From positions 2,072,709-2,136,708 of the forward strand of contig CP043547.1 in the NCBI GenBank assembly GCA_009664345.1: 64,000 nucleotides of DNA, given 5' to 3'. A program made the position numbers and the translations under genes. Below are positions 27,810 through 55,195 of this stretch, piece after piece. The notes under the pieces were generated by a model. The model had not been told where the DNA came from. It searched no databases and saw only the letters and a list, made by a program, of their open reading frames with translations. Origin of the DNA: Planctomycetales bacterium 10988 (lineage in GTDB: Bacteria > Planctomycetota > Planctomycetia > Pirellulales > Pb10988). Each line of letters starts with the position of its first letter. Positions within the stretch are counted from its first letter, which is position 1.

Positions 27810-29201
27810 CTAACGAGGGCCTAAATAACTAGGCGAAGAAGAGCGTTCAGCGACATTGGCTGGTTCTTCGGCAGGCACTTCGCCTACCAAAACGACTTTG
27901 GAGCCTACGGTCAGAATATCGAACAGATCCCGCATTTCTTGTGATTTCAAACGAACACAGCCCTGCCCTCGATGCTCCCCGATGAGTGTTTCGTCTTGCG
28001 TTGCATGCAGTCCAAGATGAGCCCCTAAATCGATCCAATATCCAGCAAGTGGATTTTCAGGATGATCCGGCCCTAAAATCCCAGATGCTCCATAATACGT
28101 TGGCTGGAGCATTTTGAGCTGCACCACGCGTGTACCAGCTTGCAGCTGCTGATCGCGTCCGAATCCGACCTGAAATTGTCCGGCGTAAAGATCCCCTAAC
28201 TTTAGACTCAGTCGATAGTTGCTTAAATCAAGATAGGCATCGAATGGCCCTGGCAGGACTTTCAATTGATCCCCTGGACGTAACTGATTGGGGTCTGCGA
28301 TGCCGTTGATCTTTGCCAAAATCTGCCAACTTACTTGATACCTCTGAGCAATTTGCTCCAAGGAATCCGCCGGCTGTACTTGATAAGGTGGTTCCAACAA
28401 ATGGCGTCGGGAATAGAGGACCGTCCCTGCTAGCTGGCTCAAAATGGCTTCAATTTCCCGCTGCTTTTCAGCAGGTAGCCGCGATTCGCCTTCCCAGGGA
28501 TACCAAGCAGAGAGACTCCGCAAGGCTTCATGAAAGCGGCCCATTTGCAAATGCCGCCCTACTTCCGCTTCGGCCGCTTGGAAGTCCGCCAACGATTGCG
28601 GGTCCCATTGAGAGTTGATCTCCGTAACCTGTTGCTGATCATTACCTTCCATCAATGTCGTATCTTCACGAACCAACCCGGCGCGACGAATCGGTCCTTC
28701 CTCAGAAATCGCAGAACCTTGACCATAGATCGAAGCCTGTACCGCTGGAGGAGGTTCCGTTTTCGTCAGTTGCGCCCCATCGGGAAAGATGGATTCTCCT
28801 GTTGGATCACCAATCGAAGCCCCAGACTCTACTTCTGTCTCGAAGAAAGGATTCGTAAATTCCGTTGCCAGTTTTTCCTGGGGAATTTTAGTGGCAGCTG
28901 GGTCTTCAACAGAGGGTGCGATCTCCGGTGAATTGATGTTCTTCTTTTCAAAGGGAGAAGGCAATTCGGTACCAGATGTTTGAGCCGGAGCTTTTCGAAA
29001 GGGATTCGAAAGGGGCGAGTCAACTAATAAGGGAAATGTCTCCTCCGCTTCGGCCACTTCTTCTTCCATTGTGGAAGCATTCTGAGAGAACAAGCTCGCT
29101 AAAGAAAGCGACTTTCCTTCAGGGGTCGCGATGGTGACATAAACGGCGTACGCTGCCCCTGCCAATGCCAAAATCGCAAACATTGTCTTGAGAGTATTCA
29201 C
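27810..29201 (-). CDS. LysM-domain L,D-transpeptidase (YkuD family)
   Basis: LysM YQVQPADSLEQIAQRYQVSWQILAKINGI...LRPGDQLKV, and the YkuD catalytic HRGQGCVRL (His/Cys). N-terminal signal/anchor present. Confidence 0.8.
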   Translation of the reverse strand: MNTLKTMFAILALAGAAYAVYVTIATPEGKSLSLASLFSQNASTMEEEVAEAEETFPLLVDSPLSNPFRKAPAQTSGTELPSPFEKKNINSPEIAPSVEDPAATKIPQEKLATEFTNPFFETEVESGASIGDPTGESIFPDGAQLTKTEPPPAVQASIYGQGSAISEEGPIRRAGLVREDTTLMEGNDQQQVTEINSQWDPQSLADFQAAEAEVGRHLQMGRFHEALRSLSAWYPWEGESRLPAEKQREIEAILSQLAGTVLYSRRHLLEPPYQVQPADSLEQIAQRYQVSWQILAKINGIADPNQLRPGDQLKVLPGPFDAYLDLSNYRLSLKLGDLYAGQFQVGFGRDQQLQAGTRVVQLKMLQPTYYGASGILGPDHPENPLAGYWIDLGAHLGLHATQDETLIGEHRGQGCVRLKSQEMRDLFDILTVGSKVVLVGEVPAEEPANVAERSSSPSYLGPR

Positions 29202-36551: not shown

Positions 36552-39011
36552 TTAGGATTCTTCGCCGTTTGAAGCTGCTTCCTGCTCTTCGCTTTCGGTC
36601 CCTTCCGCAGGAGATTCCGTTTCTTCAGGATCGAGTGTGGCAACTTCGACCATCAGGACTTCGACGGTAATCGGGCCATCGGCAGTCGCCGCGCGATCGA
36701 CATCGCCCTTTTTCTCCAAGACAATTTCGCAAACCCGTTGACGCCCAGGGGCACTGCCTGGCATGCGACGACTATCAAGCCATCGGGTGGCGTCCCGCCC
36801 TTCTCTTTCCATGGGTACGCCTTCTTTGTCGAAGTAACGCTTCCGGGGTTGAGGAGAAAATTGACCCGCTAATTGATTGGAAACCGCTGCGTAACTCGCT
36901 TCGCCTTCCAATTTCAGATAATGAACCACCAGCGGCTGGGCTTCAAAGTCGGAGCTAGAATATTCCCAAGCGTGTCGATGTTCGGCAGTCACTCGCAACC
37001 CTTCGGGAACTTCGGTCGGTCGTTGATTTTCGGAAGAATCTTGCAGGAACATCGCCCCGGTAGCACTCATCAAGAACAGTTCGCCATAGCTCGCAGGCAA
37101 AGCAAAAGCGGTCTGAATCGAATTCGATGGACGCTCTAAAAAGCTAAGCCGATTAGGAGAATTTGCTGCTTTCTCGAAGCGATCCATTTGAAATTGGACA
37201 AAATCCCAAGACGCATCATACCAATGATTGAGTGGATTATTTGAAGTTTCCGGATCGATATTCACGCGACGAAAGTAAGGGCGGCGGACAAGCTCGGGCA
37301 ACTTCAAAACCAACAACATGCCGGGATCGGACCATTGAAGCGGAGTACCGCTGGAACCGCCAGAGCCAAAAGCCCCGCCTGAACCTCGAGCGGCAAAGTA
37401 GGTTGCGAAGCCTTCGAAGTCACGGCGATAACGATAAACTTTCCCTTCCATCTGCTTGCGGGAAGTTGTCACCGGCATCGTCGTGACGAGTTGCAAAAGC
37501 TCAGAAGCCTCGGCAGAGGAACGGTTGTTTGCATCGTCCTTTTCGGACTCCTCGACCATATTTTCCAGCCGGGTCCAAAAGTAATCGACCGTCTCGGGTT
37601 GCCATAATGTTTCAGCGGTCGCCTGAACTTCTTTTTGTTGTTGCTGGGCGATCGCTTCCGGCGAACGCTGCCGATTATTTCCTCTGCCGAAGGAGCTAGA
37701 GCCACCCCCGGAAAACGCCGAATTCGTGGAAGAAATATTCTCTGCCAGTCCCGCCGCAAGATTGAGAGCGGATTCACTTTGTTGCTTGAAGAAGGAAGGA
37801 TAACGCTTTTCCTCTTCATCACTCAAACGACCCTCACGATACAGGGCGATCTGCACGGAGAGAAAACCGGGGTGCGGTTGTTTGAGCATTTCCTTGACTT
37901 TCCGCCCGACCTGTTGCGGTAATTCTTTATCCAGATAGGCCTGGGCGAGTGACTGGCGAAGTCCAATCGAATCCGTCCGCGAAAGCTGATCCAACGTCCA
38001 ATTCACCAGGGATTGCGTCGAAAAGCCGGAAGTTCCTTGACGAAGTTCATCCGGCTTGATCATGACATCCAACCAGATTTGTTCTCGGGCTTCGCTCCAA
38101 TCTCGGCTCATTGATTCCAGGGCCAATTGCACCGCAGGCAGGTCTTTGCCGAGGGTACCAAATTTCCCCGCGACGACATCACCCAAAGCCTGGTCGGAAA
38201 CGTTCGTACTATCGTCTCCCAGTGCCTCAATGATCGGTCGGGCCAAGGCTAAGTCCGCACCGCTCGAAGGGGTCGAAGGTGCCGAAGGTGCCCCAAAGGG
38301 ATTGTTTTGGGCAGGCTTCGGCGGGGCACTTCCAATCGCTTCTAACAATTCAACCAAAAACGCTTGGGATTTTTCGTCGGAATCCGCGGTATTGATATAG
38401 GACTGAATTGCATTGCCAAAGCGGGAATCATTCTGCTTGATCGCGGTAAGAAAATCCTCCGGCTGTTTCCACTCCTCTACATTTTGCGGAAGGCTGACTT
38501 GCGACTGCCCATCCGTTCCTGTTGATCCCTCCATCCGAGGAGCAAAGGGATTCTCTCCATAAGCCGGTGCCGAAGGAGTGAAAGGACTGTCACCTGCGGT
38601 TGGGGCTTGCGGGAGGCTCGAAGTCGGAGGATTGACCGGCGTAGAGGTTGGGGGATTAGGAGTTTCCGGAGTTGCGGTGGGAGGATCGCCTTCGGGAGGG
38701 GTCATTGAATTCTCCGTAGGTGCCGTTGGGGGGCCACCAAATGGGGACGTAGAATTCTCTCCCGCCCGAGGGGCTTTCGCTGACGGAGCCACTGGGGTTT
38801 CCGGTTGAACTTGTGAAGCTTCGGTCAACGAATCATCGACCGATGAAGAACTTCCCGCAGAAAAGATAATATAAACGACAATCAATAGCGAAAGTGCCAC
38901 CAAGACTCCCAGTCCCCCGAGGACCGCGGGATGCTTGATCAAGTTGACTTCTTCGGCAGGTTGAGAAGGATGTGTAGGCATGAGGGCGGACTCCTTCGCA
39001 TCTGAATGCAA
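36552..39011 (-). CDS. large membrane-anchored hypothetical protein with Pro/Thr-rich stalk
   Basis: One N-terminal TM (VLVALSLLIVVYIIF), about 150 aa of P/T/S-rich linker, then about 600 aa of unknown domain. Confidence 0.6.
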   Translation of the reverse strand: MHSDAKESALMPTHPSQPAEEVNLIKHPAVLGGLGVLVALSLLIVVYIIFSAGSSSSVDDSLTEASQVQPETPVAPSAKAPRAGENSTSPFGGPPTAPTENSMTPPEGDPPTATPETPNPPTSTPVNPPTSSLPQAPTAGDSPFTPSAPAYGENPFAPRMEGSTGTDGQSQVSLPQNVEEWKQPEDFLTAIKQNDSRFGNAIQSYINTADSDEKSQAFLVELLEAIGSAPPKPAQNNPFGAPSAPSTPSSGADLALARPIIEALGDDSTNVSDQALGDVVAGKFGTLGKDLPAVQLALESMSRDWSEAREQIWLDVMIKPDELRQGTSGFSTQSLVNWTLDQLSRTDSIGLRQSLAQAYLDKELPQQVGRKVKEMLKQPHPGFLSVQIALYREGRLSDEEEKRYPSFFKQQSESALNLAAGLAENISSTNSAFSGGGSSSFGRGNNRQRSPEAIAQQQQKEVQATAETLWQPETVDYFWTRLENMVEESEKDDANNRSSAEASELLQLVTTMPVTTSRKQMEGKVYRYRRDFEGFATYFAARGSGGAFGSGGSSGTPLQWSDPGMLLVLKLPELVRRPYFRRVNIDPETSNNPLNHWYDASWDFVQFQMDRFEKAANSPNRLSFLERPSNSIQTAFALPASYGELFLMSATGAMFLQDSSENQRPTEVPEGLRVTAEHRHAWEYSSSDFEAQPLVVHYLKLEGEASYAAVSNQLAGQFSPQPRKRYFDKEGVPMEREGRDATRWLDSRRMPGSAPGRQRVCEIVLEKKGDVDRAATADGPITVEVLMVEVATLDPEETESPAEGTESEEQEAASNGEES

Positions 39012-46087: not shown

Positions 46088-46594
46088 TTGCTATTGGAAC
46101 GATGTTCGTTGAATACTGTCGAACCTAGGCAACCGTCTTTGAAGAAAGAAAAGCCTCCCCGCCCTCTTTCTGAACAACCAACAAATCCCTGGAAGAATCA
46201 CTTTCTGCTTTTTGTATCTTATAGTTGTGTTCTACTTTTAGCTGCGACATTAAAAATTAAACAAAATGCTTTTGTGGTTTTACCTGGAAATCTGTGGCAA
46301 CTTCCCGAACTTTGCTTTGCTAAAAGAGTTTATGGTCTCCCCTGCCCTGGCTGCGGAACGACAAGGGCGTTTATCTCGATGGCGCATGGAGATTGGTTCT
46401 CTGCTTTTCATTACAATGTCGTCGGCACTTTGTTATTTCTATTTGTATGTATACAAATTCCCTATCAACTTTTTCAATGTATTCGTTGTTGGCAAGGAAA
46501 ATCCCCCTACAAAACTTTTCCCTACTGGTTCTGGGTTTATATTTGTATCATTCCAATCATGCTCATTCAATGGGTTGAAAAAGTTTGGTTATAA
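46088..46594 (+). CDS. DUF2752-like membrane protein
   Basis: YGLPCPGCGTTRAF is the DUF2752 signature, followed by hydrophobic helices. The gene is markedly AT-rich relative to its neighbours. Confidence 0.5.
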   Translation: MLLERCSLNTVEPRQPSLKKEKPPRPLSEQPTNPWKNHFLLFVSYSCVLLLAATLKIKQNAFVVLPGNLWQLPELCFAKRVYGLPCPGCGTTRAFISMAHGDWFSAFHYNVVGTLLFLFVCIQIPYQLFQCIRCWQGKSPYKTFPYWFWVYICIIPIMLIQWVEKVWL

Positions 46595-46773
46595 GTTGGA
46601 ATATTTTTCTATACGACACTTGTTGTAGAAACACTTCTACTTTTTGACATCTTTGATCAAAGGCTAATTTTTACCTTTCCCCCCTTTTATCTTTGTTCAT
46701 TCGCGGTTACAAAGTGAACACGGTATCGTTGTGAACTCAAAGCTTTCAACTTCTCGATCGTTCGGGATAATTC

Positions 46774-48699
46774 ATGTCGGAGACCTCGCTCTCCTCAGCT
46801 TCTGCTTCCGATCCCCCTCCTCCTCGCGAAAAAGCAAAACGCGCGTGGTGGAAACCGCTGCCGCTAGGGCTCCATCTTGACCCGGCATTATTTTCCGGGG
46901 CGAATATTCATATCTTAGGTTCGCTGCTGCTTTCTTTTTTGGTCGGTCCCTTGGTCGGCTTGTCGGCGGTTTTCTTTGCTCTGTGGATTCATTGGGTTCG
47001 CGCTTACACAGTCGAACCTTTGCGGGCCTTTGAACCTTTATATCCCTTGATGACGCCAGGTTGGCATTGGCTGATTCCCTTGGTTCCCGTCGCTGGATTG
47101 TTGGTGGTTTCCGGCATTACTCGCTTCTATGCCGCTGAGGTCCGCGGTAGTGGCGTGCCGGAAGTTATCTCCGCGGTCGCTTGCCGACATGGCATCATTC
47201 GTCAACGGGTGATGTGGCTCAAGGCCCTCTTGAGTGGTTTAACGGTTGGAACAGGCGGTTCGGTCGGAACGGAAGGCCCGATCATTCAAACCGGAGCTGC
47301 CCTCGCCAGCCAATTCGGGCAGACCTTCAAAATCAGCGAGCGGAATATGAAAATCCTGGTCGCCAGTGGTGCGGCTGCCGGGATTAGTGCCAGTTTCGGG
47401 GCTCCCTTGGCGGGAGTCTTGTTCGCCTGCGAAGTCATTTTGGGAAACTTCGCCTTGAATAGTTTGACGCCGATTGTGCTGGCGGCGGTTCTTTCGAATC
47501 TCACCTTTGAATTAGGCATCTCTTACTTTGATCCCCATGGTGTCAACGTTGCCGGCGAAGTTCGCCCTCTGCTGGGTTTGGCGGAATATCGCCTCGAAAA
47601 CCCTTTCGCTTTGCCTCTCTATTTGATTTTGGGAGTATTGAGCGGTTTCGTGGCGGTCAGTTTCAATCATGCCATTTATCGCACGGAAGATTTCTTTCAA
47701 AAGTATCTGCCGAAGTGGTGGCAACGGGCACTCGTGGGCGGTCTCGCGGTTGGTCTGATTGGGATGCCCCCGGTAATGCATAGTCTCAATGGCAATGGCT
47801 ATGAAACGATTCAGGCCTGCCTCGAAGCTACTAGTATGGATGCCGTGGAGCTAAGCGCCGGGATTCTGTTGATCCTACTGGTCTTCAAAATCACGATCAC
47901 AAGCATCACGCTCGGCGGCGGAGGCTCAGGCGGGATTTTCGCTCCATCGCTTTTTTTAGGGGCCGTCCTCGGGGGCATCTTTGGGCAAGTCCTTTGTTGG
48001 ATTTCGCCCGAGTTGGGCTTTCGCCCCGGCTCCTTTAGTGTGGTCGGCATGGCTGCCGTGGTCGCTGGGACAACGCATGCCCCGATCAGTACCGTGCTGA
48101 TCTTGTTTGAAATGACCTTGAATTACAGCATCATCTTGCCCCTGATGTGTGCCGCCGTCTTGGCCAGTGTGACCAGTAGTTATCTCGATCCGGAAAGTAT
48201 TTACTTAAAGAAACTTGCTCGACGTGGGGAACTGGCGACCTTTAGCCATCATACAACGAGCCTCGAAGATATCTATGTGCGGGATTTAATGATCCGCAAC
48301 TTTCCCACCGTTCCGCTGGATGCCAACTTGACGGATATGGTCCGGGCGGCGACTTCGCACCCAAATCTGGAAGCCCTGCCGGTGGTTGATCGCCAAGGAA
48401 AGTTAACCGGAATCATTGGAAGTGAGGACTTACACCGGATGCTTGATTCCGACCTGCAACCGAGCTTGGTGCGGGCGGATGATCTGGTTCGAGAAACGCC
48501 GACGGTCCTTTCTCCGGAAGATAATCTTCTGCTCGCTTTGGGCGGTTTTGGGGAGCGCGACCTGGAGGTCTTGCCGGTAATGTCGCTGGCCACCACCGGA
48601 CCGCGACGCTTGGTAGGACTCTTAACGCGGGAAGATGCCATTCGACGTTATCGCGAAGAACTCCGGCGACATCATCACCGTCAACGCAAGGCCTTTTAG
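46774..48699 (+). CDS. ClC-family chloride channel / H+-Cl- antiporter with C-terminal CBS pair
   Basis: Selectivity-filter motifs GSGVPEV, GSVGTEGP, GIFAPSLFLG; two CBS-like segments at the C-terminus. Confidence 0.85.
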   Translation: MSETSLSSASASDPPPPREKAKRAWWKPLPLGLHLDPALFSGANIHILGSLLLSFLVGPLVGLSAVFFALWIHWVRAYTVEPLRAFEPLYPLMTPGWHWLIPLVPVAGLLVVSGITRFYAAEVRGSGVPEVISAVACRHGIIRQRVMWLKALLSGLTVGTGGSVGTEGPIIQTGAALASQFGQTFKISERNMKILVASGAAAGISASFGAPLAGVLFACEVILGNFALNSLTPIVLAAVLSNLTFELGISYFDPHGVNVAGEVRPLLGLAEYRLENPFALPLYLILGVLSGFVAVSFNHAIYRTEDFFQKYLPKWWQRALVGGLAVGLIGMPPVMHSLNGNGYETIQACLEATSMDAVELSAGILLILLVFKITITSITLGGGGSGGIFAPSLFLGAVLGGIFGQVLCWISPELGFRPGSFSVVGMAAVVAGTTHAPISTVLILFEMTLNYSIILPLMCAAVLASVTSSYLDPESIYLKKLARRGELATFSHHTTSLEDIYVRDLMIRNFPTVPLDANLTDMVRAATSHPNLEALPVVDRQGKLTGIIGSEDLHRMLDSDLQPSLVRADDLVRETPTVLSPEDNLLLALGGFGERDLEVLPVMSLATTGPRRLVGLLTREDAIRRYREELRRHHHRQRKAF

Positions 48700-48904
48700 C
48701 AAAAAAATCCCTGAAACTTTTGAACGCACGCTCTTCTTGTGTTGGATAAAAGTTAAGTAAAATGCCCCCTCTCTCTTGCGATAACAACAGGGCTTTGCTA
48801 AGTTTCCGACGCCAGAGGCAAAGGGAAACAACCTACTTCGGCCCAGGCCGCCGAAGAATACATTTACCGATTTTTTTGATCCATAGTCCGAGGGGTAAGG
48901 AACG

Positions 48905-49684
48905 ATGTCGAACGATAATCCATTTTCAAGTTCTTCCAATCCATTTGAGACACCTGCTTCGAATTTCTCTCCACACGCCCCTGGCGAAGCCGTCCCGATC
49001 TCTCCTCAGATCTTTACGCTCGACTATGTCGTTCAGACAACCAAAGAGATCTATATGGAGCGTTTCGCCCCGGTTTTTTTCAGTACACTTATTTTCTGGG
49101 GGGTTAGCTTTGTAGGTGGGCTCCCCGCTCAGTTCGCACAAGGGTTGATGAACCCAGAACTCGGAATCGTGAAGGATGAAGCCGGCTTGCTGCTGATGGC
49201 CGCTCTTTGGTTTTTCTTTTACATCATCTCGTTAGTCATCAACGTTTGGATTTTGGCCGGGCACACGAAATTTTTAATGCAAGTTGTCCGGGGTGAAACA
49301 GAAAATTACGGAGTGATATTTTCCGGACCAAATTTTCTTTCCCTCTTGGGAACGTCCCTTCTTTATTACCTCATGCTGGGCTTTGGGATGGTCTTTTTCA
49401 TTCTCCCTGGGATTTTTCTCTTTACGGCCCTCTGGCCTTGTATTTATTTAGTCATTGACGATCGCACGAATACCTTGGGCTCTTTCGGAACGGCCTGGGA
49501 ATATACCGAAGGAAATCGTCTTACAGTGTTCTTGCTTGCCTTGGTCATGATCTTGGTAAGTCTTTGTGGTTTGCTGCTCTGCTGCATCGGGGTGATCTTT
49601 GCTTTCCCGGCGATTCTGCTTGGATACGTGGTCGCTTACTTTGCCATTACAGGCCAACCGACGTTCTTGGATGCTAGAAAATAA
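48905..49684 (+). CDS. multi-pass membrane protein, tandem paralog 1 of 4 (MSNDNPF... family)
   Basis: Motifs shared with the three following genes: N-terminal DNPF, FLMQVVRGE, LPGIFLFTALWP, LGSFGTAWEYTEGNRL, ITGQPTFL. Confidence 0.65.
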   Translation: MSNDNPFSSSSNPFETPASNFSPHAPGEAVPISPQIFTLDYVVQTTKEIYMERFAPVFFSTLIFWGVSFVGGLPAQFAQGLMNPELGIVKDEAGLLLMAALWFFFYIISLVINVWILAGHTKFLMQVVRGETENYGVIFSGPNFLSLLGTSLLYYLMLGFGMVFFILPGIFLFTALWPCIYLVIDDRTNTLGSFGTAWEYTEGNRLTVFLLALVMILVSLCGLLLCCIGVIFAFPAILLGYVVAYFAITGQPTFLDARK

Positions 49685-49835
49685 TTGATCAAAGCGAATT
49701 GAATGATTCCAATTAAAGGGTTGTGCTTAGCGGAATTCACTGCTATTCATAACCCTTTTGCTATTGATCCTTGTTTCATTCACTCTGTGATGCATGAATC
49801 CCTGCTCTACTCTTCCTCCAAGTTGGCAATCAACC

Positions 49836-50690
49836 ATGAGCGGTGACCCTCAAGAAAACTTCTTGCAAGGTGATTCAAATCCTTTCAAATCACCCGAATC
49901 CGAATATGGTCAGGTATCGGTAGAAGTTGATAAGGAACTGGATGTTCGCCACGTCCTTAGGAAATCCCTCGATATTTGCAAAGGGAACCTCAGAGTCATT
50001 ATTGTCGGCAGTTGGATGATGGCAGTTAGTTTCGCTGTTTGTTTTTATGCACTTATGGCGATTCCTTTCATGATCTTTGTTGTTTTTAACGAGATCATAA
50101 AAACCAACGTAGGAATCCACCCATTAGATTTTTTACTCTTCAGTGCGCTTCTTATTATATTTTTCTATCTACCTGCAGCGATTCTATTTCTTTCGAGTTG
50201 GTTGATCACAGGTCTGAATCGCTACCTGATGGCAGTAGTGCGAGGGCAGCGACTTGACTACAAAATGATTTTCGAAGGAAAAAAGCTCTGGCCGTTATTT
50301 GGGACTTTCTTCCTTCTATTTTTGGTGATCGTTGCCGGCTTATTGCTGCTCGTTGTTCCTGGAATCTTTTTGGCACTCTGCCTTTGGCCTGCTCCCTATT
50401 TAATCTCTGAGAATCGCTATCGGGCGATCGATTCTTTTAAAGTGGCGTGGGAATTAATGGAAGGGAACCGTCGGGCGATGCTACTGCTTGCCCTGGCGTT
50501 GCTCCTTATCAATGCGGTTGGAGCCTTACCGGCCTATGTTGGGCTTCTATTTACGGTGCCGTATACGCTTGTTGTTCTGGTGGTCAGTTACTTCGAACTC
50601 ACCGACCAACCGACTTATCTTGATCTAAAAGAAGAATCGGATGCTTTGGGCACAACCGATGTTCCTCCTGAGGCTCCCCCTCTTTCTTAA
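49836..50690 (+). CDS. multi-pass membrane protein, tandem paralog 2 of 4
   Basis: Start moved to MSGDPQENFLQGDSNPF by analogy with the paralogs. Motifs YLMAVVRGQ, VPGIFLALCLWPAPYL, IDSFKVAWELMEGNRR, LTDQPTYL. Confidence 0.65.
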   Translation: MSGDPQENFLQGDSNPFKSPESEYGQVSVEVDKELDVRHVLRKSLDICKGNLRVIIVGSWMMAVSFAVCFYALMAIPFMIFVVFNEIIKTNVGIHPLDFLLFSALLIIFFYLPAAILFLSSWLITGLNRYLMAVVRGQRLDYKMIFEGKKLWPLFGTFFLLFLVIVAGLLLLVVPGIFLALCLWPAPYLISENRYRAIDSFKVAWELMEGNRRAMLLLALALLLINAVGALPAYVGLLFTVPYTLVVLVVSYFELTDQPTYLDLKEESDALGTTDVPPEAPPLS

Positions 50691-50825
50691 TCTTTCGCAA
50701 GAAATTGACGTGCTCGCTTGTGAGTGGTAGCTCGCTTTGCTAGGTTCAGGGCATTTCGACAGGTATATTCTATTGACCGTTATTAGTTTGCCTATCATCC
50801 TTGTAGAACCAGAGGAACCAAACGA

Positions 50826-51620
50826 ATGAGCGGCGACAACCCCTTTCAGACCCCACAAGCTGGGCCATTTCACTCCGAGCAAGGTGTTCCCATCCCCGCT
50901 GAGGTGACGAAGAACACCTTGGATTTTGGCCAGGTACTCGGCGACTCGGTTAAAATCTATCAAGAAAAATTTGTACCGCTGTTTGTTAGTAATTTGATTC
51001 TACTGGGATGGATACTGCTGGTGCTCGCAGTACTCTTCGGCATCCCGACTGCGGTTGCTGCCGCGATGGTCGACTCGAACCCAAACGGCGGACCTCCGGG
51101 AGAACCTTCCGGTGCCGTATTGCTGGTGATCATGGTTTTCGGCTTCTTCTCGGTGATTCTCTATCCCCTTGCCCTCTGCTGGATGCTGGCGGGTTTCAAC
51201 ACATATCTCTTTCAACTCGTCCGCGGCGAGCAACCTTCGTTTGGGGTCCTTTTTAGTGGAACAAATTTTCTGCCTTACCTCGGGGTGTTACTTCTGCTTT
51301 CGATCGCAGTCAATTTGGGGATGTGTCTATTGATCATTCCGGGCCTGTTCCTGGCGTTGTCGCTGTGGCCTGCTCCTTTTCTGGTATTGGAAAACCGCTA
51401 TAGCGTGATGAACTCCTTCAAGAAGGCATGGGAACTTACGGAAGGCAACCGCCTGACGATGCTACTCATTGCCTTTATTCTCGGCTTGATTAATGGAGCA
51501 GGTGCCCTTTTGCTCTATGTCGGAATGCTATTCACCCTGCCCTTTGTGAATCTCGCAGTGATTGTTGCCTATTTTATGATCACCAGCCAACCGACTTATC
51601 TCCAAGCTGAGGGGAAATAA
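50826..51620 (+). CDS. multi-pass membrane protein, tandem paralog 3 of 4
   Basis: MSGDNPFQTP; YLFQLVRGEQP, IPGLFLALSLWPAPFL, MNSFKKAWELTEGNRL, ITSQPTYL. Confidence 0.65.
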   Translation: MSGDNPFQTPQAGPFHSEQGVPIPAEVTKNTLDFGQVLGDSVKIYQEKFVPLFVSNLILLGWILLVLAVLFGIPTAVAAAMVDSNPNGGPPGEPSGAVLLVIMVFGFFSVILYPLALCWMLAGFNTYLFQLVRGEQPSFGVLFSGTNFLPYLGVLLLLSIAVNLGMCLLIIPGLFLALSLWPAPFLVLENRYSVMNSFKKAWELTEGNRLTMLLIAFILGLINGAGALLLYVGMLFTLPFVNLAVIVAYFMITSQPTYLQAEGK

Positions 51621-51846
51621 AAACTCCTTCTCTAGCAACAATCCAGCTTCCACCAAGACCCAAAACCATCCACGGCTTCTGGGTCTTTTTCGTTGATCGC
51701 ATCAGAAAAAAGCTAAGATAAGATTGTAATGTTCTTGGGGAGACACCTTGAGGAGATGCTGAAATTTTGTTAACTTTTAACAGTTATCACCTAGACTTTA
51801 GAGCGATTTCGATCCCAGCTAACGACTTACTAAATAGGACCAAGGA

Positions 51847-52764
51847 ATGAGTGGGGCCAATCCATTTCGAAATGAATCTGATCCGTCTGACTTCCATTTC
51901 TCCAATAATCTCTTTCCCAATTCCGAACCGCAGGTGCCTAACTTTTCGCAATCAGCACCTTCGCAACCGGTATCCGACCAAGGAAGTTCCGAGGGACCCG
52001 TTCTTGGCGTTCCTCGCCCTGAGGAACTGACGCCCTGCAAGCTTGATATCAATGAGGTCATGGGGCATGCCTTTACAATCTATCAAGAACAATTTCTCTC
52101 CATCCTCGGTGGGCTGATGCTTCTTCTTGCCAGCTTCTCCGCGGTGGCCGTCTTCATCCCTCAAGTGATTTTCATTTTTGGAGCCCTCTTAATCTCCGAC
52201 CCTGAAACGGCCTCGCCTGTTGGAGAATTTTTCAACGTCATCGGTGCGGGAATTTCCATGTTCGGGATCGTATGGTTGACCGCGGGGAATTTTCTCATTT
52301 TTTGCTATTTCATGCTGGGATATCAACAGTTTCTGCTCAACATCGTTCGAGGGAGAAAGCCCCAGTTCCGTTCTATTTTTCAAGGGAAAAATTTTATCAA
52401 TTACGTGGTGATCGGCGTTTTGATGACGCTGCTCGTTCAAATTGGGAATTGTCTCTTGCTTCTGCCTGGAATTCTCATCGCAATGACCTTTTGGCCTACG
52501 GGCTATCTTATTATTGATCGAAGATGCACGGTATTTGAATCCTTTGGAATTGCATCGAGTTTAACGGACGGCTCCCGACTCAATTTCTTCCTCATGATGA
52601 TCATTCTTACCTTTATGAATGCGTGCGGATTCTTGTTAGTCGGGATCGGTTATGTCTTTACCATGTCCATCACGTTTCTCGCATTCATTCTCGCCTACTT
52701 AGCGATCTCGGGCCAACCAAATTATTTGCAGTCAGAACAGTATCAGTCGAAGTACTATTCATAA
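51847..52764 (+). CDS. multi-pass membrane protein, tandem paralog 4 of 4
   Basis: MSGANPFRNE; FLLNIVRGRKP, LPGILIAMTFWPTGYL, FESFGIASSLTDGSRL, ISGQPNYL. The most diverged member. Confidence 0.65.
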   Translation: MSGANPFRNESDPSDFHFSNNLFPNSEPQVPNFSQSAPSQPVSDQGSSEGPVLGVPRPEELTPCKLDINEVMGHAFTIYQEQFLSILGGLMLLLASFSAVAVFIPQVIFIFGALLISDPETASPVGEFFNVIGAGISMFGIVWLTAGNFLIFCYFMLGYQQFLLNIVRGRKPQFRSIFQGKNFINYVVIGVLMTLLVQIGNCLLLLPGILIAMTFWPTGYLIIDRRCTVFESFGIASSLTDGSRLNFFLMMIILTFMNACGFLLVGIGYVFTMSITFLAFILAYLAISGQPNYLQSEQYQSKYYS

Positions 52765-53087: not shown

Positions 53088-53882
53088 ATGAACGACGCCT
53101 ATCAAGCTCGCTTGGAAGTTGCCCTCGCCGCTGGCCAGGAAGCCGGCCAAATCACCCTTCACTACTTTCAACAAAAATCCCTGGTGGTCGAAACGAAGGA
53201 CGACCAATCTCCTGTCACGATTGCCGACCGGGAAGCCGAACAATTTCTCCGCAAGGAAATTCTCAAGGCCTTTCCCGAAGATGGAATCTTGGGCGAGGAG
53301 TTTCCCGAGCACGAAGGAAGTTCTGGATATCGCTGGATTCTCGATCCCATCGATGGCACGAAGTCCTTTATTTACGGAGTTCCCCTCTACGGCACGATGA
53401 TTGGGATCGAAAAAGACGGCGACCGCAGCGTTGTCGGCGTGGTCGATCACGCCCCTCTTGGTGAAACGGTCTATGCCGCCGATGGCATGGGAGCTTGGTT
53501 GATTCGCAAAGGTCAAGCCGCGATCCCTGCGAAAGTTTCCGAAGTCAGCACCCTGGTTGAAAGCCTCTTCGTTTCGACTTCACCGCCGAGTTATTATCAA
53601 TTCAACCGGGAAGCCGTTTGGCAAGCCTTGATGAAACAGTCGAAATATACCCGGACTTGGGGCGATTGTTATGGATATACCTTGGTTGCGACCGGTCGCG
53701 CGGAAGTGATGCTCGATCCGGCGATGAATCTGTGGGACAATGCCGCCTTGCAACCGATTCTCGAAGGAGCTGGCGGAACCTTTACGGACTGGAACGGAAA
53801 ACCGACCATCCACACCGGCGAGGGCTTAGCCACTAACGGGAAGATCTTCGAAGAAGTCTTGGCGCTTACTCAAGGAAAATAG
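53088..53882 (+). CDS. inositol-monophosphatase-family phosphatase (HisN/SuhB-like)
   Basis: EEF...WILDPIDGTKSF metal-binding motif and WGDCYGYTLVATG C-terminal motif. Confidence 0.8.
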   Translation: MNDAYQARLEVALAAGQEAGQITLHYFQQKSLVVETKDDQSPVTIADREAEQFLRKEILKAFPEDGILGEEFPEHEGSSGYRWILDPIDGTKSFIYGVPLYGTMIGIEKDGDRSVVGVVDHAPLGETVYAADGMGAWLIRKGQAAIPAKVSEVSTLVESLFVSTSPPSYYQFNREAVWQALMKQSKYTRTWGDCYGYTLVATGRAEVMLDPAMNLWDNAALQPILEGAGGTFTDWNGKPTIHTGEGLATNGKIFEEVLALTQGK

Positions 53883-53894
53883 CAGGCAGAAAAC

Positions 53895-53926
53895 CTAACC
53901 AAGAGGGAATCATTCTTGGTTTTCCT
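53895..53926 (+). terminator. Rho-independent terminator after the IMPase-family gene
   Basis: ccaagagggaatcattcttgg stem-loop followed by ttttcc. Confidence 0.5.
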
Positions 53927-54129
53927 GGTCTCATGGCTTGGGCAGAATTGGAATCCGCGATTGGATTGACTATAATAATAGTGCGCTGAATGCATGAAGA
54001 AAATGTTGTTCGGTGCTTGTTTACAGGTGTTTGCGAAACGATTTGCATTCACCTTCAATCCGGTCGATCCGGTTCGTCCTCCTATCCTTCAGGTCCCGAT
54101 GGACCGATTTTCCCCAGAGGGAGGCCCCC

Positions 54130-54588
54130 ATGAACGCCAAAACGATTCTCTTTCCCACGGATTTCTCTCGACTCAGCGATAATGCTCTGCACCGTGCCAC
54201 GGTGTTAGCCAAGGAATCCAATGCGAAGTTGTTGATTCTTCACGTGGAAGAACCCCCTTCGGCCTATGCGGGAGGGGAAATGTATTATGGAATGCCAGAG
54301 CCTGATCACGAGGCCCTCAAGGAGATGCTGGCTAGAATTACTCCGCACGATCCAGACCTTGCGTTCGAACGTCGTTTGGAAATCGGCGATCCTGCCAGCG
54401 AGATCGTTCGTGTTGCGGAAGAAGAAGACGTTGATATGATCGTGATGGCAACGCACGGCCGCACCGGACTTACCCGGCTGTTAATGGGAAGTGTCGCAGA
54501 ATCCGTCGTTCGCCATGCTCCATGTGCGGTGCTTTCGTTAAAAGAGCCGCATCGAGCGAAGGATGCCCAGGAAGAGTCGGTTCGTTGA
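54130..54588 (+). CDS. uspA: universal stress protein
   Basis: MNAKTILFPTDFS...LHV...MATHGRTGLTRLLMGSVAESVVRHAPCAVL, the USP ATP-binding G-2x-G-9x-G(S/T) motif. ATG at 54130 with gggagg RBS. Confidence 0.8.
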   Translation: MNAKTILFPTDFSRLSDNALHRATVLAKESNAKLLILHVEEPPSAYAGGEMYYGMPEPDHEALKEMLARITPHDPDLAFERRLEIGDPASEIVRVAEEEDVDMIVMATHGRTGLTRLLMGSVAESVVRHAPCAVLSLKEPHRAKDAQEESVR

Positions 54589-54718
54589 GTTAAACGCGAA
54601 CAGCGTTCCTGCTTTTGAGCGTCTCTCTTGTCTAGTACAATCGTCTGTCCTAGAGATTGAGAGGCCGCTTCTCTACTTCCCTCCAATCATCGTACCTGTT
54701 TCACCAGGGAGTCGAACG

Positions 54719-55195
54719 ATGGATCAAGTGCTTCAACGCCTGAGTACGCTTGTGGCAGCCGATGTAATGAACCGTGAGGTCGTCGAAATCGGCTCCACGG
54801 AACGCCTTTCGCAGGCGGTTTCAACCTTGCGACAACATGCCGTTACGGGGGCTCCTGTTCTTGACCCGGAACACCGCTGTATCGGGGTGCTGAGTGGGGC
54901 GGACCTCGTTCGCTGGGCAAGCCTTTTCTTCTATGCCCTCGATGGAAATTCTACCTCCAACCATGGCGAGCTAAGCCTGAATCCCAAAGTGTCCGACTTG
55001 TTATCTCCGGACCTTTCGGCAATTCCTTCAGAAACTCCGCTGTTGGAAGTTGCTCAACGAATGTGTCGTTCCCACGTGCATCGGATGGTCGTCGTTGACC
55101 ACCAAGGGAAAATTCAAGGGATTGTCAGTACCATGGATGTGGTGGCGGCCCTGGTGAATGCCTTGGCGGAAGCAGGCCTGACTGATCCTGCCTAA
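54719..55195 (+). CDS. CBS-pair domain protein
   Basis: Two CBS-like units (VADVMNREVVEI...GAPVLD and RMVVVDHQGKIQGIVSTMDVV). Start placed at MDQVLQ with gggag RBS. Confidence 0.7.
   Translation: MDQVLQRLSTLVAADVMNREVVEIGSTERLSQAVSTLRQHAVTGAPVLDPEHRCIGVLSGADLVRWASLFFYALDGNSTSNHGELSLNPKVSDLLSPDLSAIPSETPLLEVAQRMCRSHVHRMVVVDHQGKIQGIVSTMDVVAALVNALAEAGLTDPA

What the first reader, a model, noticed from the sequence alone, without database searches (positions are those of the whole stretch)
48905..52764. Four tandem paralogs of an uncharacterised multi-pass membrane protein family with N-terminal NPF tails
Four consecutive same-strand genes of 259-305 aa share one architecture. Each has a cytoplasmic N-tail beginning MS(G/N)(D/A)NPF, often with a second NPF/NLF; four or more TM helices; and conserved blocks (Y/F)L(M/F)xVVRG(E/Q/R), (L/I)PG(I/L)F(L/I)A, WP, SF(G/K)xAWE(L/Y)TEGNRL and (T/S)GQP(T/N)YL. 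They are clearly homologous but diverged (roughly 30-45% identity by eye). Each has its own 135-226 bp upstream region, so each may carry its own promoter, which argues against a recent duplication. I cannot assign a Pfam family with confidence; they may be distantly DUF975/UPF0259-like. NPF is the ligand of eukaryotic EH domains, which is at least curious in a Planctomycete-like genome; this point is speculative.
Basis: seen in the sequence. Interest (0 to 1): 0.7.

Follow-up and report, generated by a model that had tools for sequence, protein, structure and literature searches.

The report
Four tandem DUF975-like membrane protein genes
Four old, diverged tandem copies of a DUF975/YciC-type inner-membrane protein in a planctomycete are predicted to fold like the sulfate channel CysZ, and their cytoplasmic tails carry a short NPF/NPY motif that is conserved across the family and also occurs on unrelated small membrane proteins.

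Summary
Four intact, same-strand genes encode homologous membrane proteins of 259, 284/298, 264 and 305 aa. They are 27-39% identical (92-172 bits, against at most 26.6 bits for shuffled controls). The genome is Planctomycetales bacterium 10988.

They are not a new family. They form a divergent branch, lacking the usual zinc ribbon, of a very large DUF975/UPF0259 (YciC) superfamily. An exhaustive search found 11,949 cluster representatives. HHalign to E. coli YciC gives 95.9% probability, and 83 of 140 relatives hit DUF975.

The NPF tail is a real conserved short linear motif, N-P-[YF]-x-[AST]-P. It occurs in 89 of 139 relatives' tails, against 3.4 expected. It usually sits in a disordered linker between an N-terminal zinc ribbon or GYF domain and the first TM helix, often in several copies. 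It also occurs on Yip1- and RDD-family membrane proteins. A link to eukaryotic EH domains is unsupported.

Function remains inferred. The best guess is small-solute channels or facilitators that are regulated or positioned through a tail-docking partner. A four-copy array is unusual: three of about 41 other distinct loci held a tandem pair and the rest a single copy.

The parts
48905..49684 (+). Paralog P1, 259 aa. It has a disordered N-tail (about aa 1-37) followed by the DUF975/YciC-like membrane core.
   Evidence: The core-HMM score is 210 bits.
49836..50690 (+). Paralog P2, 284 aa from the ATG at 49836. This matches the database protein. The longer ORF from 49794 would give 298 aa.
   Evidence: P0005 is 284 aa. 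The core-HMM score is 179 bits.
50826..51620 (+). Paralog P3, 264 aa. It is the most central copy and is identical to PBC10988_13060. It was the sequence modelled at pLDDT 93.
51847..52764 (+). Paralog P4, 305 aa. It has the longest N-tail (about 80 aa), which contains NPF plus NLFP and PNFS variants.
48917..48925 (+). First NPF motif of P1 (aa 5-7). A second copy lies at 48938-48946 (aa 12-14, NPFETP).
   Evidence: Translation.
49878..49886 (+). NPF motif of P2 (NPFKSP, aa 15-17 counted from the 49836 start).
50838..50846 (+). NPF motif of P3 (NPFQTP, aa 5-7).
51859..51867 (+). NPF motif of P4 (NPFRNE, aa 5-7).
48792..48804 (+). A 13-mer, GCTTTGCTAAGTT, lying 113 nt upstream of the P1 start. 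It is shared exactly, apart from one R position, with the region upstream of P3. It is a candidate common regulatory element.
50734..50746 (+). A 13-mer, GCTTTGCTAGGTT, lying 92 nt upstream of the P3 start.

Best explanation
**What is shown**
- The locus is an old tandem expansion of one gene into four intact genes. It appears to be specific to this lineage.
- The gene belongs to the DUF975/UPF0259 (YciC) superfamily of bacterial inner-membrane proteins, in a branch that is very abundant in Planctomycetota.
- Each predicted protein has this order of elements: a disordered cytoplasmic N-tail; a short amphipathic helix; two long TM helices; a helical hairpin kinked at an invariant Pro-Gly; a second amphipathic helix (SFxxAWExTxGNR); a second helical hairpin; and a cytoplasmic C-terminus (GQPxYL).
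- This helix order is the same as in the sulfate channel CysZ. The model is also closest in 3D to CysZ and to the core of SLC44/CTL choline transporters.
- The tail carries a conserved short linear motif, NP[FY]x[AST]P. In most relatives it sits between an N-terminal zinc ribbon or GYF domain and TM1.

**What is inferred**
- The core most likely forms a channel or facilitator for a small polar solute. The four copies may differ in specificity or may co-assemble.
- The tail motif most likely docks a cytoplasmic protein module that gates, localises or assembles the protein. Candidates are zinc-ribbon or GYF domains, which would act in cis in relatives and in trans here, because these four proteins lack both domains. 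The precedent is the zinc-ribbon/linker/GYF switch of Myxococcus GltJ.
For: **Paralogy**
- Pairwise scores are 92-172 bits, against at most 26.6 bits for shuffles.
- Each copy's best hit is another copy.
- The four form a clade in a neighbour-joining tree, with bootstrap support of 96/200.

**Family assignment**
- The exhaustive profile search found 11,949 representatives.
- DUF975 is hit by 83 of 140 relatives and UPF0259 by 36 of 140.
- HHalign to E. coli YciC gives 95.9% probability, with the PG motif aligned.
- All 39 loci recovered from named genomes are Planctomycetota.

**Fold**
- The AlphaFold2 model has pLDDT 93 and pTM 0.86.
- The four top Foldseek hits are all CysZ chains, with probability 0.97-0.99 and TM-score 0.43-0.52.
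- The published CysZ helix architecture matches the model helix for helix.

**Transport hint**
- Overexpressed E. coli YciC lowered intracellular D-alanine (PMC10299036).

**Motif**
- NP[FY] is found in 89 of 139 relatives' tails, against 3.4 expected (maximum 9 in shuffles).
- N, P and Y are at least 90% conserved inside an otherwise unconserved linker.
- 33 of 38 tails from named Planctomycetota carry the motif, often as 1-4 NPF copies followed by a final NPY.
- The same motif occurs on Yip1-domain and RDD-family membrane proteins.

**Topology**
- K+R residues are concentrated on the N-tail side.

**Precedent for docking**
- In GltJ, the zinc ribbon binds a linear motif in its own linker and GYF binds a proline-rich sequence (PMC11135422).
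- Bacterial GYF domains are commonly fused to TM modules flanked by proline-rich stretches (PMC2034487).
Against: **Transport function**
- There is no direct functional evidence for any close relative.
- The YciC result comes from overexpression only.
- Profile-profile comparison with CysZ shows no sequence homology (probability below 1%). Foldseek E-values are only 0.08-0.26. The fold match may therefore be convergence among small helical membrane proteins.
- The CysZ sulfate-binding GLR(R) motif and its dual topology are absent.
- No conserved gene neighbour points to a substrate.

**Tail docking**
- No binding partner for the motif was identified.
- The motif also occurs in relatives with no zinc ribbon in cis (26 of 40). 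It is absent from all 27 double-zinc-ribbon relatives. The zinc-ribbon docking idea is therefore only one option.
Confidence: 0.45

Rival explanations
1. The proteins are membrane scaffolds or adaptors. The membrane core is mainly an anchor or oligomerisation platform. The real function lies in the tail, which recruits a cytoplasmic partner to the membrane, as GltJ or ZitP do. No solute is transported.
For: - Relatives nearly always carry protein-interaction modules (zinc ribbon in 99 of 139, GYF_2 in 5 of 140) plus the linear motif.
- GltJ is a precedent.
- The same motif on unrelated membrane cores (Yip1, RDD) suggests that the tail function does not depend on the core.
Against: - The core is much better conserved than a passive anchor needs to be. 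G123, F143, G165, P172, G173, D189, G233, P239 and Y249 are nearly invariant across relatives that share only 20-38% identity with the query.
- The conserved polar residues cluster on a cytoplasmic 'head', as in CysZ.
- The fold neighbours are all transporters.
Confidence: 0.25
2. The four paralogs are subunits of one hetero-oligomeric complex and are not independent, functionally diverged proteins.
For: - The genes are adjacent on the same strand, all four are retained intact, and all key residues are conserved.
- CysZ works as a hexamer and SLC44A1 as a dimer.
- Tandem pairs also occur in other Planctomycetota (L001, L017, L042).
Against: - Most relatives are single-copy at their locus, so the fold does not require hetero-oligomers.
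- Spacers of 109-226 bp, and a 13-mer shared only by the P1 and P3 upstream regions, suggest at least partly separate regulation.
- All four have the same predicted orientation, so they are not antiparallel pairs.
Confidence: 0.2
3. The NPF/NPY arrays are bacterial counterparts of eukaryotic EH-domain ligands. They would mark these membrane proteins for an endocytosis-like or membrane-trafficking system in Planctomycetes.
For: - The motifs lie in disordered, Pro/Gly-rich cytoplasmic regions and are often multivalent, with up to four NPF copies plus one NPY. This resembles eukaryotic NPF arrays.
- They occur on several families of small polytopic membrane proteins, including Yip1.
Against: - Across the family, Y is preferred over F (75 vs 38 instances). 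The conserved context is x-[AST]-P, which is not the EH consensus.
- The motif was also found on RDD-family and unclassified small membrane proteins in diverse metagenomes whose source organisms are unknown. The motif has not been shown to be confined to Planctomycetes.
- No EH-like partner was seen or could be searched for, and no literature links the two.
Confidence: 0.05
4. The core is a membrane domain that serves an enzyme acting on lipid head groups or cell-envelope polymers. This would resemble the related GPDPase_memb domain fused to glycerophosphodiester phosphodiesterases. It would not be a stand-alone transporter.
For: - P3 has a weak hit to PF10110 GPDPase_memb (E 2e-5, below threshold), and 5 of 140 relatives hit it.
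- SLC44/CTL proteins handle choline and ethanolamine, which are products of such phosphodiesterases (established knowledge; inference).
Against: - No enzyme domain is fused to these proteins, and none is conserved next to them in about 40 loci.
- Matches to DUF975 and YciC are stronger than those to PF10110.
Confidence: 0.1

Closest known systems
DUF975 (PF06161) / UPF0259 YciC (PF06790, NF002774) superfamily, including GPDPase_memb (PF10110) and DUF7847
   Same: - Homology is detectable at profile level: HHalign to E. coli YciC gives 95.9% probability over 169 columns, and relatives hit DUF975 down to E 3e-19.
- The size is the same (about 250 aa).
- The six-helix layout is the same, including the Pro-Gly kink in the third membrane helix.
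   Different: - The four proteins fall below the Pfam and NCBIfam thresholds.
- They belong to a Planctomycetota-rich branch with cytoplasmic N-terminal extensions (zinc ribbon or GYF, plus an NP[FY] linker) that E. coli YciC lacks.
- Within that branch they are unusual in lacking the zinc ribbon, in using only NPF rather than NPY, and in forming a four-gene array.
CysZ sulfate channel/permease (EI24 family, PF07264; PDB 3tx3, 6d9z)
   Same: - The helix order is identical: a short H1, two long TM helices, a hairpin, a short amphipathic H6, a second hairpin, and both termini in a cytoplasmic hydrophilic head.
   Different: - There is no sequence similarity, even profile to profile.
- The GLR(R) sulfate-binding motif is absent.
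- Charge bias indicates a single N-in orientation and not CysZ's dual topology.
- The TM-score is only about 0.5.
SLC44/CTL choline-transporter-like proteins (human CTL1 7wwb; yeast PNS1 9f63)
   Same: - The authors of the SLC44A1 structure also found CysZ to be its nearest PDB neighbour.
   Different: - SLC44 proteins have 10 TM helices and a large extracellular domain.
- Identity is 8-9%.
- They are eukaryotic.
GltJ-type N-terminal zinc-ribbon/linker/GYF cytoplasmic switch (Myxococcus xanthus; PDB 7zok)
   Same: - Relatives of the four proteins have the same modular logic: an N-terminal zinc ribbon or GYF domain, a disordered linker holding a short conserved motif, then a membrane module.
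- The zinc-ribbon part of the family profile weakly matches the GltJ/AgmX zinc ribbon (E 0.013).
- In GltJ the zinc ribbon binds a linker motif and GYF binds a proline-rich sequence.
   Different: - The four window proteins have neither a zinc ribbon nor a GYF domain. Only the motif remains.
- The membrane module is unrelated.
- No binding has been shown for NP[FY]x[AST]P.

Membership tests
DUF975 / UPF0259 (YciC) superfamily | Significant sequence-profile similarity to the family | tested here: met
   - HHalign of the family profile against E. coli YciC gives 95.9% probability, E 5.6e-9.
- 83 of 140 relatives hit PF06161 and 36 of 140 hit PF06790.
- Precomputed Pfam annotations of relatives list PF06161.
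- The four proteins alone reach E values of only 9e-5 to 2e-3, below the gathering scores. Membership is therefore at superfamily level.
DUF975 / UPF0259 (YciC) superfamily | A polytopic inner-membrane protein of about 250 aa with six membrane helices and a conserved Pro-Gly in the third | tested here: met
   - The model has pLDDT 93, with helices at 49-83, 96-132, 148-168/170-179 and 209-228/234-252.
- The PG motif aligns with YciC VPGI.
CysZ / EI24 (PF07264) | Sequence-profile match to the family | tested here: not met
   - HHalign probability is 0.5% against E. coli CysZ and 0.1% against a 16-sequence CysZ profile.
- No EI24 hit appears among the 140 relatives.
CysZ / EI24 (PF07264) | The CysZ fold: two long TM helices, two helical hairpins and a hydrophilic head | tested here: met
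   - Foldseek probability is 0.97-0.99, with TM-score 0.43-0.52.
- The helix order matches the published description.
CysZ / EI24 (PF07264) | GLR(R) sulfate-binding motif between H1 and H2, and dual (inverted) topology | tested here: not met
   - The H1/H2 junction in P3 reads ...IYQEKFVPLF..., with no G-L-R (direct reading).
- The K+R distribution is one-sided in all four proteins.
SLC44 / CTL transporters | Ten TM helices with a large extracellular loop domain | tested here: not met
   - The proteins are only 259-305 aa with six membrane helices.
- The similarity is limited to a core of about 195 residues.
Eukaryotic-type EH-domain ligand (NPF motif) | An NPF tripeptide in a disordered cytoplasmic region, often multivalent | tested here: met
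   - NPF is present in all four tails.
- Relatives carry up to five NP[FY] copies.
Eukaryotic-type EH-domain ligand (NPF motif) | Strict requirement for Phe at the third position | tested here: not met
   - Across the family there are 75 NPY and 38 NPF instances.
- The terminal, best-conserved copy is NPY.
Eukaryotic-type EH-domain ligand (NPF motif) | Presence of an EH-domain partner in the same organism | not testable with these tools
   Only 64 kb of the 6.65 Mb genome is available, and no EH or EF-hand protein is encoded in the window.
GltJ-type zinc-ribbon/linker/GYF module | An N-terminal zinc-ribbon and/or GYF domain preceding the membrane module | tested here: not met
   - The four window proteins have no CxxC pairs and no GYF hit.
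- Relatives do have them: 99 of 139 carry a zinc ribbon and 5 of 140 carry GYF_2.

The most novel reading that the evidence does not exclude
NP[FY]x[AST]P is an undescribed, widespread bacterial short linear motif. It marks the cytoplasmic N-tails of many unrelated small polytopic membrane proteins (DUF975-like, Yip1, RDD and others) for one common cytoplasmic reader. On this reading, the four zinc-ribbon-less paralogs here are 'bare ligand' clients of that system. If so, bacteria would have a generic, multivalent tail-motif/adaptor code for membrane-protein sorting or regulation, comparable in logic to eukaryotic NPF-EH or PPxY-WW systems.
Probability: 0.2. Interest if true: 0.75.

Novelty: new member of a known kind. 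Interest (0 to 1): 0.4.

Why it matters
**The genes**
- On their own the genes are ordinary. They are a divergent tandem expansion of a very large, known but uncharacterised DUF superfamily.

**By-products worth keeping**
- The DUF975/YciC superfamily has thousands of members and no known mechanism. It is predicted with high confidence to share the fold of CysZ and the SLC44 core. This gives a concrete, testable hypothesis that its members are channels or facilitators.
The motif is shared by several unrelated families of small bacterial membrane proteins and usually sits beside zinc-ribbon or GYF interaction modules.
- Identifying the motif's reader could reveal how many small membrane proteins are regulated or positioned. 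This would apply especially in Planctomycetota, whose cell biology is still debated.

Tried and rejected
- **Direct family scans.** Pfam, NCBIfam and PADLOC scans of the four proteins gave only sub-threshold hits, and PADLOC gave none. A defence role is not suggested.
- **Word-indexed homologue search with P3.** It found essentially only P3 itself. The exhaustive profile search was needed.
- **First structure prediction.** The run with four sequences was poor (pLDDT 61.7) and was replaced by the 140-sequence run.
- **Sequence profile against PDB.** No membrane-core hit was found. Only weak zinc-ribbon matches appeared.
- **Homology to CysZ.** This was rejected at sequence level.
- **Genome-collection scans.**
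  - The scan with the four-paralog alignment found nothing.
  - The 140-sequence alignment was too diverse to use.
  - A 10-sequence subset worked.
- **AFDB fold library.** It was unavailable.
- **Conserved gene neighbourhood.** None was found.
  - The ClC, DUF2752, IMPase, Usp and CBS neighbours do not recur elsewhere.
  - Recurrent neighbours elsewhere are just abundant planctomycetal families: PQQ propeller, DUF1501 and sulfatase.
- **Promoter and terminator scans.** Results were no better than shuffles.
- **RNA families.** No Rfam RNA lies in the region.
- **Recent duplication or assembly artefact.** Rejected, because the copies are only 27-39% identical.
- **TM composition bias.** Rejected by the shuffle control.
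- **Literature.**
  - Nothing links NPF motifs to Planctomycetes.
  - Almost nothing functional is published on DUF975, PF10110 or PF06790.
  - The only functional lead is the YciC D-alanine export screen.

Full report

Yes. The window has four consecutive + strand ORFs at exactly the stated coordinates:
- P1: 48905-49684, 259 aa
- P2: 49794-50690, 298 aa
- P3: 50826-51620, 264 aa
- P4: 51847-52764, 305 aa

The public protein for P2 is 284 aa. This matches the internal ATG at 49836, so all four then begin MS(G/N)(D/A).

Pairwise BLASTP gives 27-39% identity over nearly the full length, at 92-172 bits. The best score of any paralog against 800 composition-preserving shuffles is 26.6 bits. The similarity is therefore homology and not hydrophobic composition.

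The spacers are:
- 205 bp upstream of P1
- 109 bp from P1 to P2 (151 bp to the 49836 start)
- 135 bp from P2 to P3
- 226 bp from P3 to P4

NPF is at residues 5-7 of P1, P3 and P4 and at residues 15-17 of P2. P1 has a second copy, and P4 has NLFP and PNFS variants.

**2. Source organism and family**

P3 is 100% identical to 'Hypothetical protein PBC10988_13060' of Planctomycetales bacterium 10988, on a 6.65 Mb contig.

Scanned directly, the four proteins give only sub-threshold hits to UPF0259/YciC, DUF975 and GPDPase_memb.

An exhaustive HMMER search with the four-paralog profile against 1.84 billion cluster representatives found:
- 11,949 proteins at E<=1e-3
- 3,408 proteins at E<=1e-10

The best non-self hit scores only 167 bits, against 391-414 bits for the four paralogs themselves, which were used to build the profile. 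The family is therefore huge, but this organism has no sequenced close relative.

Family assignment rests on three results:
- Of 140 aligned relatives, 83 match DUF975 (best E 3e-19), 36 match UPF0259, 5 match GPDPase_memb and 5 match DUF7847.
- Profile-sequence HHalign against E. coli YciC gives 95.9% probability (E 5.6e-9, 169 columns), with the invariant Pro-Gly aligned to YciC's VPGI.
- All 39 loci recovered from a species-representative genome collection with a subfamily alignment belong to Planctomycetota: Pirellulaceae, Pirellulales, Planctomycetaceae and Anatilimnocola.

The proteins are divergent members of a known but uncharacterised superfamily.

**3. Age and rarity of the array**

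Evidence on the age of the duplication:
- Each paralog's best BLASTP hit is another paralog, with P3 as the hub. Outside relatives reach only 28-34% identity.
- In a neighbour-joining tree of 140 sequences on 218 core columns, the four form a clade. Bootstrap support is modest, at 96/200.
- All four keep the residues that are nearly invariant across the family (G123, F143, G165, P172-G173, D/E189, G233, P239 and Y249 in P3 numbering). All four are therefore probably functional.

A core-only HMM scan of all fetched loci shows how unusual the array is:
- Single copies occur almost everywhere.
- Tandem pairs occur only at the L001-L003 locus, at L017 and at L042.
- No other four-gene array was found.

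This is an old, apparently lineage-specific expansion. It is not a recent duplication or an assembly artefact.

**4. Structure**

A first model built from only four sequences was poor (pLDDT 61.7). With the 140-sequence alignment, the AlphaFold2 model of P3 reaches pLDDT 93 and pTM 0.86. Its elements are:
- residues 1-33: no regular structure
- 34-47: short amphipathic helix
- 49-83 and 96-132: two long TM helices, the second ending in the VRGE block
- 148-168 and 170-188: a hairpin kinked at Pro172-Gly173
- 194-205: amphipathic helix (SFKKAWELTEGN)
- 209-228 and 234-252: a second hairpin
- GQPTYL: a short C-terminal helix

Lys and Arg lie almost entirely in the N-tail, the two inter-hairpin loops and the C-terminus. 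The TM1-TM2 loop has none or one. All four proteins are therefore N-in/C-in, and the tail is cytoplasmic.

Fold searches gave a consistent answer:
- Foldseek independently ranks four CysZ chains first, with probability 0.97-0.99 and TM-score 0.43-0.52.
- The published CysZ protomer has a short H1, two long TM helices, two helical hairpins separated by a short H6, and both termini in a hydrophilic head (PMC5967866). This is the same order of elements as in the model.
- The SLC44A1 authors also reported CysZ as its nearest PDB neighbour.

There are limits to this resemblance:
- HHalign of the family profile against E. coli CysZ, or against a 16-sequence CysZ profile, finds nothing (probability below 1%).
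- The GLR(R) sulfate-binding motif is absent.
- The charge bias argues against CysZ-like dual topology.

I therefore describe these proteins as having a CysZ-like fold. I do not claim they are members of the CysZ family.

**5. The tail motif**

Among the 139 relatives with a tail of at least 30 aa:
- 89 contain NP[FY], against 3.4 expected from shuffled tails (maximum 9).
- The 113 motif instances give the consensus N-P-[Y75/F38]-[A/Q]-[A/S]-P.
- The last copy lies a median of 41 residues before TM1.

Other supporting observations:
- In a 10-sequence subfamily at 43-48% identity, N, P and Y are at least 90% conserved while the flanking linker has no consensus. This is the signature of a short linear motif in a disordered region.
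- In tails from named Planctomycetota genomes, 33 of 38 carry the motif. The typical layout is a zinc ribbon, a Pro/Gly-rich linker, 0-4 NPF copies, a final NPY[AS][SA]P, about 40 residues, and then TM1.

Relationship to the N-terminal domains:
- 99 of 139 relatives have an N-terminal CxxC...CxxC zinc ribbon.
- Five of the 140 aligned relatives have a GYF_2 domain.
- 63 of 72 single-zinc-ribbon proteins have the motif.
- None of the 27 double-zinc-ribbon proteins has it.

A minority of relatives begin directly with MSxxNP[FY], as the four window proteins do. Examples are P0035, P0054, P0072, L030 and L045.

The motif is not confined to this family:
- In the flanks of the fetched loci, NP[FY].[AST]P occurs three times in non-family ORFs, against 0.42 expected. 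Two of the three are a tandem pair of Yip1-domain membrane proteins with N-tails DNPFAAPQ and DNPYAAPQ.
- A metagenome scan for an ATG-anchored MSxxNPYx[AS]P returned mostly noise. Of the roughly 16 ORFs of at least 100 aa that really start there, 11 are small polytopic membrane proteins.
  - Two of these belong to the RDD family.
  - One is DUF7847-like.
  - Eight match no Pfam family.

**6. What the motif might do**

I found no literature describing this motif. There is, however, a close mechanistic precedent for the surrounding architecture.

In Myxococcus GltJ, an N-terminal zinc ribbon binds a short motif in its own disordered linker, in competition with MglA-GTP. The adjacent GYF domain binds a proline-rich sequence of AglZ. 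The authors note that zinc-ribbon/GYF modules fused to membrane modules are common in myxobacteria and planctomycetes (PMC11135422). Balaji and Aravind had already noted that bacterial GYF domains are fused to TM domains and flanked by proline-rich stretches (PMC2034487). The zinc-ribbon part of the family profile weakly matches the GltJ/AgmX zinc-ribbon structure (E 0.013).

My inference is that NP[FY]x[AST]P is a docking site for a cytoplasmic module. This is not shown. In the four window proteins, which have neither a zinc ribbon nor a GYF domain, any such reader must act in trans. The same window encodes an unrelated single-TM protein with this kind of zinc ribbon (11318-12856, minus strand).

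- Tyr is preferred over Phe across the family.
- The conserved context differs from the EH consensus.
- The motif also occurs on small membrane proteins in diverse metagenomes of unknown taxonomy.
- No EH-like protein could be sought in 64 kb of sequence.

**7. What the core might do**

The only experimental datum in the superfamily concerns E. coli YciC. It was one of five hits in a D-alanine exporter screen, and it lowered intracellular D-alanine when overexpressed (PMC10299036). All three fold neighbours are small-solute channels or transporters. Together these make a channel or facilitator the best-supported function, at perhaps 30-35% probability.

Gene context gives no help:
- The window neighbours are a TPR protein, DUF2752, a ClC channel with CBS domains, an inositol monophosphatase, Usp, a CBS pair and an alpha/beta hydrolase. 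They do not recur next to relatives.
- The neighbours that do recur are simply abundant planctomycetal families.

**8. Regulation**

- Promoter and terminator consensus scans are no better than shuffles.
- No Rfam family matches the region.
- The regions upstream of P1 and P3 share an exact 13-mer, GCTTTGCTARGTT, at 113 and 92 nt before the start codons. It has no other exact copy in the window. This is a candidate common regulatory element, but it is unproven.

**9. Verdict**

The family guess is right.

The claim of novelty for the genes shrinks to 'divergent members of a known DUF superfamily in an unusual four-copy array'.

- a CysZ/SLC44-like fold for the DUF975/YciC superfamily
- a robust, apparently undescribed NP[FY]x[AST]P tail motif shared by several families of small bacterial membrane proteins

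Function and mechanism remain inferred.

Noticed in passing
window 48792-48804 and 50734-50746 (+): An exact 13-mer, GCTTTGCTARGTT, lies 113 nt upstream of the P1 start and 92 nt upstream of the P3 start. It has no other exact copy in the 64 kb window. It may be a shared promoter or operator element of the two most similar paralogs.
   Followed up: partly
window 11318-12856 (-): This 512-aa protein begins with MPVRFVCTQCQKLLRV...CPKC, the same kind of N-terminal zinc ribbon found on most relatives of the four paralogs. Here it is attached to a long acidic, Pro-rich linker, a single TM segment and an unrelated C-terminal domain. It has no Pfam hit.
   Followed up: partly
window 36552-39011 (-): This 819-aa protein has no Pfam hit. 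It has an N-terminal TM segment followed by a Pro-rich region with repeated SPF/NPF motifs (SPFGGPP, SPFTPSAP, ENPFAPR, NNPFGAPS). It is another carrier of NPF-type motifs in the same genome.
   Followed up: partly
L039 10577-11308 and 11326-12063 (+): This is a tandem pair of Yip1-domain (PF04893) membrane proteins in a Planctomycetota MAG. Their N-tails carry DNPFAAPQ and DNPYAAPQ. They lie 2-3 kb downstream of a DUF975-like family member. The same motif therefore occurs on an unrelated membrane family.
   Followed up: partly
L092 92-583 (-), L098 7041-7559 (+), L065 7832-8611 (+), and L051, L079, L081, L082, L086, L096, L102, L116: These small polytopic membrane proteins from metagenomes begin with MSxxNPYx[AS]P. 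Two belong to the RDD family, one is DUF7847-like and eight match no Pfam family. The N-terminal motif appears to be a general feature of small bacterial membrane proteins.
   Followed up: partly
relatives P0007, P0008, P0012, P0013 and others; L042 2616-3656 and 3660-4763: Relatives with two zinc ribbons never carry NP[FY] (0 of 27), whereas 63 of 72 single-zinc-ribbon relatives do. The second zinc ribbon and the motif-bearing linker seem to be alternatives.
   Followed up: partly
window 46088-48699 (+) and 53088-55195 (+): The array is flanked upstream by a DUF2752 protein and a ClC channel with CBS domains. Downstream lie an inositol monophosphatase, a universal stress protein and a CBS-pair protein. 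This looks like an ion or stress neighbourhood, but it is not conserved next to relatives elsewhere.
   Followed up: yes
proteins P0167, P0168, P0169: Three 222-aa DUF975 relatives carry a precomputed Pfam hit to Voltage_CLC (PF00654) in addition to DUF975. This is unexplained. It may be a spurious overlap between TM helices.
   Followed up: no
window 27810-29201 (-): This LysM plus YkuD (L,D-transpeptidase) protein has an N-terminal region containing SNPFRKAP. It is an NPF but does not fit the x-[AST]-P context.
   Followed up: no
L001 7176-7850 (+): This double-zinc-ribbon protein is fused to a different small four-TM module. It lies immediately upstream of a tandem pair of DUF975-like genes. 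The same N-terminal modules are therefore reused on different membrane cores within one locus.
   Followed up: no
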